63,895 nt of DNA from Pocillopora damicornis (lineage: Eukaryota): the NCBI RefSeq assembly GCF_003704095.1, contig NW_020846686.1, forward strand, positions 310,001 to 373,895. The letters run 5' to 3'. Under the pieces are notes generated by a model. It ran no database searches. It was given only the letters and a program-made list of their open reading frames with translations, and was not told the DNA's origin. Made by a program: the position numbers and the translations under genes. Shown in pieces: positions 53,664 to 62,525 of the stretch (positions are counted from its first letter, which is position 1; each line of letters opens with the position of its first letter).

Positions 53664-53763
53664 NNNNNNNNNNNNNNNNNNNNNNNNNNNNNNNNNNNNN
53701 NNNNNNNNNNNNNNNNNNNNNNNNNNNNNNNNNNNNNNNNNNNNNNNNNNNNNNNNNNNNNNN

Positions 53764-54747
53764 TTGACGTTGCAATCGTTCTCGACAAATCCCAGAGTGT
53801 TAAATTAGGTAATCTGGAAAAGGTTATCACCTTCCTGGGTAAACTGGTTGGGAACTTCGACCCTGCTCCTGAAGCAGATCACTTCGGCCTTATTACCTTT
53901 AACAAAAAGGCACAACTGTCTTTCAAATTTGGCGACTCACAATATCACAATAAAGACGCCTTACTAAAAAAAATAGCCAACGAACCCATGGTCCTACAGT
54001 ATCAAACTCGCACCGATATGGCTCTCCTTATGGCGAGGGACGAGATGTTTACTAAGGCAGGAGGAGACAGACCAGACAAACCAAATGTCATGATTGTACT
54101 CACAGATGGAAAGCCAACTAATCCAGACAAAGACTTTGACTTCAAGGCATTTTCTAAAGAGATATCGAAAGACTTCAAGGCGAGTGTAAAATAGTTATGT
54201 CGAGGCTTGATTGATGAGAACATAGGGTTAAGACAAATAAAAATGTGAACCTAATGAGTTGAATTTTTCAATTCTTGTGAACTGAAAGCTAGGACATTAA
54301 CTTCAAAGTATTTGCTGAAGAAATAAATAAAAATTTCAAGGTGGGTGTGAAGTAGTTAAAAAAAAAAAGTTTGATCAATGACAGCTGATGTTTCAACGAG
54401 TCATTCCACTGAGAACTAGAGCCCTAGTTGGGTTCCTTGTGTTGTGTTCGTTGTCATTTGTTGAGATGAATTAGCATTGCATCCTACTCACTTTATGATG
54501 CAGGATAAGTTCTAGCAGTAATGGACCCTTAAAACTAACTTAATCCTTCTCCAATCAAAAGTGACTCATGTGTCAGAGATTCTCTTCTTACAGGAAAAGA
54601 AAGTCAACATTGTAGCAGTGGGCATCGGTCCAAGAGTGGAGGAAGCCACTTTGCACGATATCGCTGGCGCAGGTCCTGTGGTTCAGGTGGAGGCGTTCGA
54701 TAAGCTTGATGAAATGATGAAAACAATCAAGGGATCGGCTTGTTCGG
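53764..54747 (+). CDS. VWA gene copy C (subfamily 2); exons <53764-54179 and 54594-54747
   Basis: DVAIVLDKSQS..HFGLITF..QTRTD..VLTDGKP..KDFK|gcgagt; ttacag|EKKVNIVAVGIG..KGSACS-G|gtaagt; open frame, full MIDAS. Confidence 0.92.
54293..54340 (+). other. 48-nt paralogous exon-end remnant or cassette (DINFKVFAEEINKNFK)
   Basis: ctag|...AAG|gtgggt; aligns with DFDFKAFSKEISKDFK. Confidence 0.7.
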
Positions 54748-56498
54748 GTAAGTTATAATTGCAAATACCTCAATCGCTCTTACTTTTGAATCCACCTGGC
54801 CTTCTCAGAGAGAAAAATGGATCCCGTTTAAGTACTTCATGGTTATATTTACCATTATTGCTGTTAGTATTACTGCTATCAAAATTATTGTACTTACTTT
54901 TGTTTCAATCATTAAAACTCTGGTTGTTAGCTTTATAAGCTCTGATCTGCTTACATTGATGCTTACCGAAAAAATTTTCTCACATGCGAGCGTCACAAAA
55001 AACAACATTTCGTGCCATTTTCTAGGATAAAGAGGCTGGTTTTTAAAGTTCAATATTATTTTAGCAATGTAGCTCATAGGTAGGTTTGTAGGAATTTAAT
55101 GTAGTGTTTTTTAAAGTTAAAAAAATATATCAATACTTATAATTATTATCATAAAGTGATGCTCATGGAGAAACTTTTCTCACATACGAGTGTCACAAAA
55201 TCAAGCTTTTGTGTTCATTTTGCAGAATAAAGAAGCTGGCTTTTCAAGACATGTCGTATCTTTGGATCAAACCAAATGGGGTAGACTATGAATGAAGCAA
55301 CAAAAATTTACGGAATTATTGTGTATGCATATCATACTGAAAATAAACTACCTTAAAGCGGGAACCTTTGTCTTTGCCCATTTCTTAAAAAAAGCCACTG
55401 GTGGAGAGAAATCGTCGTTTTATCATCCAAATTTATTTTTAGAAGTAAAAATTTGTCGGCGTAGATGGAAATGAAGTATTTTGTATGGAAAAAAATGGAA
55501 ACAGTTATCAGTTATTTTGGATGTGGACTTTTTGAGCGTCGCCATGTTGAGTCTCTAAGTCTCCAAGGTTGCTGCAATCTCCGTATTATCCCCTGTGGAC
55601 CACTGTGGACAAAATACTATTGTTCAATGATAGCAGCGGAAACTGAATGACGTCATGCAATCCAAAATGGCGCCTGCCGAGAAAGTCAGACATCGATATT
55701 GCTTTTATTTGTTTCCAGTTTCAAATATTTGGTTCCTGTATCCCATGTTTTCGCCCAAATTTTTGAAATGACATTTTCATCTATTTAATGCCAACTCATT
55801 CTACCAGTGGAGGTTTCCTTTTTGATCCTGTCTCTTACAATTTAAATTCAATGCTTCATCTTCTTGTCCACTTTCTCATCCACCTCCGCGCGCGTTATAA
55901 GGAATTCTTCTCGAGCTTGCGGTTGACATAGTTTTAACCATGACTATTTTTGCTTTGAAAGTTTACTAGAAATTGTATTGTTTTCGGATAAAAACTAACT
56001 GGTATGATCTCCCGCCCAAAGCGTGGGTAGGTTATTCTCTGCTTGCTGGCTTCACATTTCTTAGCCCAAGTGAAGACCGTGTAATGCCAAAGCATGCGCC
56101 AGTGGTACGCTGTACCAAGCCCTGGACTTCGAGTACGCGTAATGGATAGATTTGTGCCGCCCGCAATACAATTTTTTGTGCATGCTTTAAAAGAGCAACT
56201 TGTACGCACAGACGGAGAGGCGTGCGATAGCGCAGCGCCGCGTGATCTTTTCCTCAAAACGCACCAATCACAACTTTTAAATCCTAGCCATTCACAGCTA
56301 AGCACGATGCTTCATAAGGTGACAACTATCCAGTTGATCTTCAAGGCATCGCTAGATAAAGACTAGCTGAATGCTACAATACGCTCTCAGTTTCAATANN
56401 NNNNNNNNNNNNNNNNNNNNNNNNNNNNNNNNNNNNNNNNNNNNNNNNNNNNNNNNNNNNNNNNNNNNNNNNNNNNNNNNNNNNNNNNNNNNNNNNNN

Positions 56499-59912: not shown

Positions 59913-60035
59913 TATCCATCTGTGAGTATCATCAATATCATCTGCAGATAAAGAATGTCTTGAAAGTAAAACTACAATAGCCCTGCACCATTATACCCCT
60001 CTTGATGGGCGTCATGTTCTGCTTGTCAAACGTCT

Positions 60036-62525
60036 TTAGCCTGAAAAGTAAGTAAAAACAGCTCTGTTTAATTCACTCAAGGAAAGCTAGAACCGAAAAA
60101 ATCCACAGAAGCAATTGTGTTTTATGCAGTGATTCCGGCTGATAACAATGATATATGAATTCTATTCCAGACCTAATCGTTTGCCCTTGCTCAACGTGCA
60201 CAGTCAGGCATAAGAATGTGCTATATTCTATGTATTACATCACGTCAAAATACTCACGACATACAAATGTTATGAAAAATGGCCTGTGCTAAGCGTTAAG
60301 TAATTAAAACGGAGCGAAATGATAAATGGTATGATAGAAGCGGCAGAGTCAAAAAAGGGAGGAAGGTCTGGGTCGGTTCAGCTAACCCGGAACGGTACGG
60401 GTAATCCAGAAATGAAAGAAAAAATTGACGCTATCCAGTACTAAGCCCGCGAAATAAGCCGCGGAGTTAAAAAAAGAGGGATGTCTGGGTCGGTTCGGGT
60501 AACCCGGAAATGAAAGAAAAGATTTAGTTCATCCAGTTCTAAGCCCGCGAAAGAAGCGGCTTAATTAAAAAAGGAAGGGAGGTTTGGGTCGGTTCGGAAC
60601 GGTTCGGGTAACCCGGACAAGTAAGAAGAAATTTGCTTTATCCAGTACTAAGCTCGCGAAAGAAGCAGCAGAGTTAAAAAGGGAGGGATTTCTGGATCGG
60701 TTCGGGTAACTCCTGAAATGAAAGAAAAAAATTTAGTTTATCCAGTACTAAGCCCGCGATAGAAGCAGCGAATTGAAAAATGGAAAAATGCTTGAGTCGG
60801 GTTACACGAACCCTCAAAAAGCTCCTCAACGTGATTAAAATGGGCATCAGTTTGTCGTGGGATTTTGCCGACAAATGATTCAATTTAGGCGTCTAAATAC
60901 TCACCGGAACAAGCCAATCCTTTGATTGTGTCCAACATTTCGTCCAGCATACTGAAGTCCTCTACTTGCACCACTGGGTTACCTTCACCCGCAATTTCCC
61001 GTAAGGTTCCCTCCTTCACACCTGAACCAATCCCGACAGCAACAACACTGACGTCTTTCGCCTAAAACGAAGACCAAAATATGAAGTTAATCATCAGCTA
61101 TTGTTACAACTCCAGTTGATTGAAAACCGCGCTTTGTGATTCCGAGAAATCGGTGTTTTATTCTTTGGTGAAATATATGTGGCTTATTTGAGCTGTTTCC
61201 GCGTCCGAAGTCAAATTTCTCAGCATATTTGAAGTTAATTTTCGAAAGAAAAACCGCAGTGGTGTAGGGATTCAAGTCGTTAATCAAAGCCTGACATAAC
61301 TCGTTTGTCAAAACTAAAGCAATCAATGTTACCTTCGGTACTTGATTTCTCTACGTCCTAATTAGTTAAGTGAAAGAGCGAAGCAAAGGGGAGCACTTCA
61401 ATTGTGTGTACTCAACAAAGTATTGCAAGTTTGTATATGAAGTATATTCATTCGTCTCACAATAAAACCTCTTCTGTTGTAGATCGCGACGTTACGATTT
61501 CATGCTAGTTTTCTTTAAGCGATAATGTCGACTGGGCACGCCGATACCCCTGTTATGCTTCTTGATCCTCTCTCATTGAGGTCCGAGTGCCGATTTAAAC
61601 TTTGCCAGACTCAGAGAGAATCCCGTAAAAACCACGCTATCTTGTTTAGATGAGTCAACCACATCCAATAGCCGTTTTATGCATGATCGTAACGTAGTCT
61701 CCGAATTGAAAACGGTCCGTGTTCCTTATAGCTGCAGGCAGAGGGGAAGTTGTTCAGAAAGACCTGTGACATCTGACAAATCTGCCGTAGATTTGAACTC
61801 GATGGAGGCTAAACAAGAAGGCGTTGTTTACAGGATTCTTCAGTATCACTTGAAGAGAACTCACAGTTCACAGTCAGTTACAGTTGAAACGAAACGCTGC
61901 AATCCCTACTGGAAGTGACTACGTCGTGAGATGAATGACTATACTTTACATACAAGTGAATTCACCACTATGAATAACCGCATCCTAAGTTTAAAAATCT
62001 GTCTTCACTGACTCTGACGAAACCTTCTGAAAACAGTGTTCACACCCTAACGCTCCATTTCAGTTAAAGTTCTCGATGGAATTCAAATCAGTGTAGCCGG
62101 TGATGGTAGATATTACGCAGATTGACATATTCTACGTTTTATATGAAACAACCTGTTAACGTATCACAAAAAAAGAGAAAAATACTTCCTTATTTATTAC
62201 AGGTTTTTCTCGAAATAAATCAATGTTGCTCTTTTTCAGTTGTGATTTCAATGCTTTGTCATACCTCTCGTACTCTTCTTATTATCAATGTCTTAACTTT
62301 CAGTTCAATTGGATTGAAAAATTAAACTCAATAAGTTCAAGTTTCCATTGTTTTACCCTTCCGTTCTTATCAATCAAGCCTCAACCTAGCCTATTTACAC
62401 TCGCATTGAAATCCTTCGATATCTCTTTAGCAAATGCCTTGAAATCAAAGCCTTTTTTTGGATGAGTTGGTTTTCCATCTGTGAGTACAATCATGACATT
62501 TGGTTTGTCTGGTCTGTCTCCTCCT
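60036..62525 (-). CDS. VWA gene copy E (subfamily 2): exons >62525-62405, 61061-60905, terminal 60040-60036 (Gly-stop)
   Basis: GGDRPDKPNVMIVLTDGKP..KDFN; tttag|AKDVSVVAVGIGSGVKEGTLREIAG..KGLACS-G|gtgagt; ttttcag|GC TAA. Confidence 0.85.
60337..60810. repeat. ~100-120 bp tandem repeat (4+ units) in the last intron of copy E
   Basis: Core GGGTCGGTTCGGGTAACCCGGAA..ATCCAGTACTAAGCCCGCGA. Confidence 0.9.

What the first reader, a model, noticed from the sequence alone, without database searches (positions are those of the whole stretch)
54132..54747. Copy C looks like a chimera with a fossil recombination junction
Seen: copies C and E match at 35/40 aa over the visible end of the first VWA exon and share ~115 bp of intron, up to gacatt (54298 vs ~62287). 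Exactly there, C switches into a second, diverged version of the same exon end (DINFKVFAEEINKNFK|gtgggt) with its own homologous intron start. The next exon is only 34/52 identical to E (hand counts). Inference: out-of-register recombination fused an E-type 5' half onto another paralog's 3' half, shuffling VWA half-domains. A local tandem duplication is the alternative explanation.
Basis: partly seen in the sequence, partly recalled or inferred. Interest (0 to 1): 0.75.

Follow-up and report, generated by a model that had tools for sequence, protein, structure and literature searches.

The report
Spliced-out exon relic in coral gene
In a Pocillopora coral's cluster of adhesion-type (VWA-TSP1) genes, one copy carries about 200 bases that match a neighbouring paralog plus a 48-base leftover exon end inside its intron, likely the scar of a short gene-conversion event; the sequenced RNA splices the leftover out, so this is an ordinary fossil and not a shuffled half-domain protein.

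Summary
The counts are right (35/40 and 34/52 aa). The 48-nt second exon end stands far above background, and the junction is bridged in 4 of 4 public runs laid and recurs in a sister copy on another scaffold.

The half-domain chimera is not supported. C's exon 1 5' part and its exon 2 both group with paralog G and the Stylophora orthologue (congruent trees; 87-88% nt to G, 68-70% to E/F). Only the last ~60 nt of exon 1, the GC donor and 112 nt of intron are E/F-type. No separate donor paralog for the second exon end was found.

All 3 RNA runs splice GC donor to exon 2 and skip the relic; none shows it used.

Best reading (0.55): a ~175-225 nt E/F-to-C conversion tract that began in a block conserved across the paralogs and ended out of register at an AAGAC microhomology, stranding C's old exon end in the intron. 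Main rival (0.3): an older intronic duplicate shared by both lineages, since E/F show a faint relic at the same place. A known kind of event, with little effect on the protein.

The parts
53766..54179 (+). C: first exon of the C-terminal VWA domain (its start lies in the gap 53664-53763); nt 1-293 are G/Stylophora-type
   Evidence: Pfam VWA 98.8 bits, profile 1-119 of 174; identities; tree; covered by RNA contigs
54059..54119 (+). Block near-identical in the paralogs (GGDRPDKPNVMIVLTDG); inferred homologous start of the tract
   Evidence: C-E 60/61, C-F 59/61, C-G 59/61; max-chi2 break between 54071 and 54101, 0 of 5000 permutations
54120..54298 (+). E/F-type patch: last 60 nt of exon 1, GC donor, 113 nt of intron, gacatt
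   Evidence: Exon end C-F 52/60, C-E 51/60, C-G 41/60; intron 87-90/112
54180..54593 (+). 414-nt GC-AG intron that contains the relic
   Evidence: Joint skipping 414 nt in 3 of 3 RNA runs, listed as 54177>54592 with 3 letters fitting either side; moved 2 on it reads GC..AG (sequence)
54273..54295 (+). Decayed form (15/23) of a 23-nt intron piece that in E matches F-type exon 1 nt 220-242 at 21/23
54293..54340 (+). Relic exon end, 48 nt, DINFKVFAEEINKNFK; in frame, TAG before it, GT after it; not seen in mRNA
54341..54593 (+). Second donor (gtgggt) and rest of the intron; inferred to be C's original intron
   Evidence: No alignment to E or F past ~18 nt (326 and 341 of 500 shuffles reach the score); 159/162 to the C2804 copy
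54594..54747 (+). C: second VWA exon, G/Stylophora-type
55226..55230 (+). Start of the last exon; supplies the final codon and stop (protein ends SACSE)
   Evidence: Loose ends at 54747 in 3 RNA runs; sequence; P0007 ends the same
62290..62525 (-). E: visible exon-1 end (62525-62405), GC donor and shared intron start, ending in the 23-nt exon-like piece (62312-62290); likely donor lineage with F
60905..61061 (-). E: second VWA exon, sister to F's
   Evidence: 141/157 nt to F; tree 95/88
19094..19936 (+). Copy A, an N-terminal-type VWA; likely the front of the same gene type as C (the TSP1 exons between are not in the window)
   Evidence: 72-86% to the N-terminal VWA of Stylophora P0006, whose C-terminal VWA is C-type; linkage inferred

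Best explanation
Copy C is an expressed coral VWA-TSP1 gene whose intron holds a 48-nt leftover exon end that the sequenced RNA splices out, likely left when a short gene-conversion tract copied from the E/F paralog ended out of register. Inferred steps: repair of a break in the C-type gene invaded an E/F-type neighbour in the ~60-nt block that is near-identical in the paralogs, copied the exon end, the GC donor and 113 nt of intron, then rejoined C at a short AAGAC microhomology 48 nt before C's own donor. The copied exon end became the working one; C's old exon end and GT donor were left in the intron and are decaying. The event predates the split of C from its sister copy. The protein changed at a few of the last ~20 codons of exon 1 at most.
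For: Shown: both flanks are C/G/Stylophora-type. Informative sites switch from 70 G-type:16 F-type to 1:13 (0 of 5000 permutations). Non-coding intron identity to F (90/112) is higher than coding identity to F in exon nt 1-293 (203/293; Fisher p 0.026). The GC donor is shared by C, E, F and absent from G, H, I, J. The intron after the relic is unrelated to E/F. RNA skips the relic in 3 of 3 runs, and the P. verrucosa model P0007 (99% to C) does too. Pointers to direction, both weak to moderate: (a) the last 23 nt of the shared intron in E match F-type exon 1 at 21/23, the top score among 260,696 23-mers, and only 13/23 to the C exon, so that intron likely arose in the F lineage; (b) the relic has Asn in I-N-K as the Stylophora orthologue does, a state in 3 of 120 homologous exon ends, 2 of them isoforms of that one gene. 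E intron vs F exon match 10/11 at the junction.
Against: E and F introns at the relic's position score weakly as exon ends even without the first 8-11 columns (4-50 of 5000 shuffles over 16 profile/column settings, best at offset 0 of nine; rank 9 of 1296 and 14 of 1613), which suggests they too once had a relic. The relic is not closer to G's exon end (31/48) than to C/E/F's (34-36/48), and C's second intron part does not align with G's intron (20 of 200 shuffles), though G is C's close relative. Many of the 13 late F-type sites look like changes in G alone when read against the outgroups (judged by eye). The Asn codon sits in an AAAT-like run and could be slippage. The microhomology is short: 77 of 590 E-intron 11-mers reach 9/11 and 15 reach 10/11 somewhere in the F exon. 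No outgroup genomic DNA for the C orthologue was obtained (one search gave 6 loci, none C-type).
Confidence: 0.55

Rival explanations
1. Older shared duplicate. A duplicated, internally deleted piece of exon 1 (nt 220-242 joined to the exon end at a repeated AAGACT) arose once in an F-type intron and reached C by conversion, or an old tandem duplication was followed by conversion of the first unit only. The relic then decayed faster in E/F than in C.
For: Faint exon-end signal in E/F at exactly the relic position. The F exon has AAGACT both after the 23-nt piece and at the relic start. C intron part 1 aligns weakly with part 2 (47/71; 0 of 500 shuffles past the first 18 nt).
Against: Ages do not fit: in E the 23-nt piece is 21/23 intact but the next 40 nt only 14-21/40; C relic vs E/F at that place is 23/48 beside an intron at 78-80%. 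The part 1/part 2 likeness drops to 32 of 500 with the sister copy's part 1 and to chance with E and F.
Confidence: 0.3
2. One reading: an E-type 5' half fused to another paralog's 3' half, shuffling VWA half-domains.
For: 35/40 aa and shared intron start. E's own 5' half lies in a gap and was not seen, so E could itself be C-type upstream.
Against: Congruent trees: C with G and Stylophora in both exons (97/99 and 87/92), F apart. An ENA ORF with an E-like intron start (P0050) has an F-type 5' exon, though its exon end is F-like, so it is not E itself. No third paralog carries the relic as a real exon end. Stylophora has the same exon 1/exon 2 pairing as C.
Confidence: 0.04
3. Plain local tandem duplication of 161 nt within C, with no exchange between paralogs.
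For: The next intron holds a decayed ~200-nt-period duplicate of the last exon's acceptor (78%), so local duplications do occur here; the relic is as close to C's exon end as to any (36/48).
Against: It does not explain why 112 nt of intron match E/F at 78-80% while the exons differ by 30%, and the second unit should then match E/F's intron equally well; it does not.
Confidence: 0.06
4. Assembly artefact in a gappy scaffold with many near-duplicate stretches.
For: 25 gaps; 29,158 of 63,895 bases lie in self-matches of 200 nt or more at 76-94%.
Against: The junction lies inside one contig, recurs at 95% on C2804 and is bridged by single contigs in 4 of 4 runs from 4 studies, with 0-5 differences. 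These are contigs of public runs, not long reads.
Confidence: 0.01

Closest known systems
Gene conversion ending by non-canonical, microhomology-mediated termination (Hartlerode et al. 2016, PMC5104497; abstract only)
   Same: Homologous start, end in non-homologous sequence joined at microhomology, possible templated scraps at the breakpoint.
   Different: That work used a mammalian cell reporter with kilobase sister-chromatid tracts; here it is an inferred ~200-nt germline event between paralogs, and the mechanism is read from a fossil.
Partial and intronic (degenerate) exon duplications (Exonize, PMC12343006; passages)
   Same: A decayed partial copy of an exon lying in an intron; the paper reports such events in more genes than full-exon duplications (4-7% of vertebrate genes).
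   Different: Here the working copy likely came from a paralog and the relic is likely the original.
Tandemly duplicated gene arrays of corals (Noel et al., bioRxiv 10.1101/2022.05.17.492263; passages)
   Same: An old array with conserved exon lengths and diverged introns.
   Different: The authors call gene conversion very rare in corals, judged from whole exon/intron structures; this is a short local tract that such a test would likely miss.
Coadhesin-like coral proteins (database label of P0005-P0007; coadhesin as skeletal matrix protein in PMC3748352 and PMC8086859, passages)
   Same: VWA and TSP1 domains.
   Different: No FA58C domain found in the four relatives scanned; presence in the skeleton untested.

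Membership tests
VWA domain (PF00092) | Score above Pfam's curated cut-off | tested here: met
   98.8 vs 23.8 bits for exon 1; full domain in P0007
Coadhesin | VWA plus TSP1 repeats | tested here: met
   P0006, P0007, P0176, P0216
Coadhesin | FA58C carbohydrate-binding domain (as stated in PMC8086859) | tested here: not met
   0 of 5 proteins scanned, including P0039, which its source names coadhesin; so only 'coadhesin-like' is used
Coadhesin | Found in the skeletal organic matrix | not testable with these tools
   No proteomic data for this gene; paper supplements were not read
Non-allelic gene conversion tract | Local segment closer to a paralog than its flanks are | tested here: met
Non-allelic gene conversion tract | Both flanks of recipient type | tested here: met
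   Congruent trees; 256/293 and 135/154 to G
Non-allelic gene conversion tract | One-way transfer, with direction fixed by an outgroup | tested here: inconclusive
   Internal pointers only; no outgroup DNA; E's 5' half missing
Microhomology-mediated termination | Microhomology at the rejoining point | tested here: inconclusive
   10/11 to the F exon, 9/11 to the C exon, but such matches are not rare
Chimeric gene from unequal crossing-over | 5' and 3' parts descend from different paralogs | tested here: not met
Alternatively spliced duplicated exon | In frame and flanked by AG and GT | tested here: met
   48 nt, phase 0-0, tag before and gt after in C and the C2804 copy
Alternatively spliced duplicated exon | Included in mRNA | tested here: not met
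   0 of 3 RNA runs list a joint at either end of the relic; contigs drop rare forms, so low-level use is not excluded
Alternatively spliced duplicated exon | Purifying selection on the copy | tested here: not met
   5 of 5 differences between the two relics change the amino acid; the C2804 copy may be a pseudogene

The most novel reading that the evidence does not exclude
The scar created a new cassette exon: the junction gained a TAG acceptor, the relic is in frame with its own GT donor, and in some tissue or life stage not sampled here it is spliced in, adding a second 16-residue copy of the exon-end segment to the VWA domain. That would be exon birth by faulty termination of gene conversion, in an array where the conserved GGDRPDKPN block acts as a conversion hot spot despite the published view that conversion is very rare in corals.
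Probability: 0.07. Interest if true: 0.55.

Novelty: new member of a known kind. Interest (0 to 1): 0.22.

Why it matters
Little for function: the protein is an ordinary VWA-TSP1 protein and the relic is spliced out. Modest value for coral genome evolution: it is a clear case of short sequence exchange between paralogs that differ by 30%, in a group where conversion has been called very rare (bioRxiv 10.1101/2022.05.17.492263, passages), and it keeps a readable breakpoint. It also warns annotators: the GC donor is mis-called in at least two database models (P0162 and P0229 insert AS). I found no paper on this locus in seven searches; the library lacks most subscription journals and I read no supplements.

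Tried and rejected
Donor paralog for the relic: a genome search with 54285-54600 gave 2 matches, C and the C2804 copy; a protein search gave 32 VWA matches, 8 of the C-terminal type, none ending like the relic; these searches score only the best candidates.

Outgroup DNA: the metagenome scan gave 6 loci at 45-70% identity, one a transcript, none C-type, none sharing C's intron. No Stylophora genomic ORF was among the best 120 of 161 short hits.

The idea that the whole first intron part is a decayed exon: of 77 intron-exon comparisons only E-F (0 of 200) and the controls I-H (0 of 200) and G-C (1 of 200) stood out; cheap-gap alignments were unconvincing; only the 23-nt piece survived a genome-scale null. 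Its length was chosen after seeing it.

Source of intron nt 19-92: no hit beyond C, E, F and the C2804 copy in 171 kb.

A possible VWA scrap at 59937 (minus strand, 19/23) was read and left as likely chance.

Contig depths (689/196/56 for the spliced joint, 12.6/3.6/2 in the intron) were not used as expression levels; the tool warns against it.

Earlier findings of the scan: none. No fold or complex was run, as the relic does not reach the protein. My notebook gives the last exon's start as 55227; one search shows 55226.

Full report
WHAT THE LOCUS IS. The window is G000:C3321:310001-373895, a gappy scaffold (25 gaps) of a Pocillopora coral: exon 1 of copy C matches a P. verrucosa protein labelled coadhesin-like at 99% and a Stylophora one at 83%. 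These proteins are VWA-(TSP1)n-VWA. C is the C-terminal VWA, split into exon 1 (to 54179; Pfam positions 1-119 of 174) and exon 2 (54594-54747). Extending to 141 kb of the scaffold showed the array: E (62525, minus, exon 1 mostly in a gap), F (69666, minus), G (83972, plus), H and I, plus a sister copy of C on C2804 and a distant copy J on C4179. Coordinates above 63895 continue the window's numbering. The copy names F-J are mine.

The hand counts are exact: 35/40 and 34/52. The 113 nt after C's first donor match E at 87/112 and F at 90/112, with 0 of 200 shuffles as good, and match G, H, I, J no better than chance. The second exon end (54293-54340) scores 35.5 on a profile of the six true ends; the best of the other positions among 262,828 scores 8.3. 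Its 'own intron start' is homologous for only about 18 nt. The junction is real DNA: the C2804 copy has it at 95%, and single contigs bridge it in 4 of 4 runs laid, three RNA and one probably DNA, from four studies, with 0, 5, 4 and 3 differences. These are assembled contigs, not long reads.

THE CHIMERA READING DOES NOT. F supplies the part of exon 1 that E lacks; E and F are 1502/1658 identical across exon end, intron and exon 2. Over exon nt 1-293, C is 256/293 identical to G and 203/293 to F. Over nt 294-354 all copies are alike (59-60/61), which is why E's visible end looked so close. Only nt 355-414 favour E/F (51-52/60 vs 41/60). Informative sites switch from 70 G-type:16 F-type to 1:13 between 54071 and 54101 (0 of 5000 permutations), though many late sites look like changes in G alone. 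Exon 2 returns to G-type (135/154 vs 105-108/154). Trees of 19 rows for each part are congruent: C, G, Stylophora P0006, P0007 and P0176 together (97/99 and 87/92), F (and E) apart. No third paralog owns the relic. So C is one gene type on both sides of an internal E/F-type patch of about 175-225 nt. E's own 5' half remains unseen; this is the one gap in the argument.

WHAT THE RNA SHOWS. All three RNA runs have one joint over this intron, skipping 414 nt; read with the cut two places on, it runs from the GC donor to the exon-2 acceptor. No joint starts or ends at the relic, and the low-depth intron contigs run straight through it. P0007 and P0176 skip it as well. Contigs drop rare forms, so minor use is not excluded. 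Use of the second donor alone would meet a stop four codons into the intron. The relics of C and the C2804 copy differ at 5 of 48 nt and all five change the residue, against 7 of 113 and 3 of 162 in the flanking intron: no sign of coding constraint, though that copy lacks the first 180 nt of exon 1 and may be a pseudogene.

HOW IT MOST LIKELY AROSE (inferred, 0.55). A conversion tract began in the shared block, copied the E/F exon end, GC donor and 113 nt of intron, and rejoined C at a short AAGAC microhomology 48 nt before C's own donor. This explains at once why homology to E/F ends where the relic starts, why the intron after the relic is unrelated to E/F, and why GC is shared by C, E and F but not G, H, I, J. 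Two pointers favour E/F as donor. The last 23 nt of the shared intron in E match F-type exon nt 220-242 at 21/23, the best of 260,696 23-mers (the other scores of 20 are the F equivalent, overlapping E windows and true VWA exons), and the C exon at only 13/23. The relic shares a rare Asn with the Stylophora orthologue (3 of 120 exon ends). Homologous start with microhomology end and templated scraps is a described outcome of recombination in mammalian cells (PMC5104497, abstract). The patch is older than the C/sister-copy split: both 5' types carry the same intron start in ENA ORFs.

WHAT TELLS AGAINST IT. E and F show a faint exon-end signal at exactly the relic position even without the microhomology columns (4-50 of 5000 shuffles; E and F are not independent). 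With the repeated AAGACT in the F exon this allows an older, internally deleted duplicate shared by both lineages (0.3), although the intact 23-nt piece beside a half-decayed 40 nt fits that poorly. The relic is not closer to G than to E/F, and C's second intron part does not align with G's. The microhomology is too short to be proof. Outgroup DNA would decide this and was not obtainable.

COMPARISON AND VERDICT. Degenerate partial exon copies in introns are common (PMC12343006, passages). Coral arrays are described as birth-and-death families in which conversion is very rare (bioRxiv 10.1101/2022.05.17.492263, passages); this short tract is a small counter-example. The protein is coadhesin-like by label but lacks the FA58C domain named for coadhesin (PMC8086859, passages). 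Seven searches found no paper on this locus; supplements were not read. A real, tidy fossil of a known kind with little effect on the protein: interest 0.22.

Noticed in passing
Each gene lies in one gap-free contig. Likely exchange within the TSP1 repeats.
   Followed up: partly
window 54059-54119: Codons for GGDRPDKPNVMIVLTDG keep the same synonymous codons across paralogs (C vs others 14-18 of 18-19) and other corals (11-15 of 19-20), more than in the rest of the exon; conversion hot spot, splicing signal or codon bias.
   Followed up: partly
window 54180-54181; L002 1735-1740: The donor is GC in C, E, F but GT in the C2804 copy, and both forms occur among ENA ORFs of C type (ASIK/ASVK vs VSIK). 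Exon-end variants also mix freely between the two C-type 5' forms, suggesting ongoing conversion.
   Followed up: partly
window 54957-55048 vs 55157-55248: A decayed ~200-nt-period duplicate (78%) of the last exon's acceptor in the next intron; RNA uses the second copy at 55226.
   Followed up: partly
L002 1490-1510 (G000:C2804 ~5600): The sister copy's exon 1 starts at nt 181, joined directly to intron sequence: a deletion allele, pseudogene or misjoin.
   Followed up: no
P0162, P0229, P0180, P0160: Database models mis-handle this GC-AG intron: two insert AS, one adds intron residues before exon 2, one splices on into the next gene.
   Followed up: no
window, whole: 29,158 of 63,895 bases lie in self-matches of 200 nt or more at 76-94%, often inverted and gap-bounded; divergent haplotypes or paralogs not told apart. 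No TSP1 exon lies between copies A and C; the matching ones are on C2804.
   Followed up: no
P0075: A second F-like exon-1 type (49 members) whose frame ends just after the A-run at HPKK; could be E's missing type.
   Followed up: no
window 62404-62220 (E intron) and F intron: The motif AACTGAAA...ACATTGAT at the junction recurs about 64 nt further on in E and F; seen by eye, not tested.
   Followed up: no
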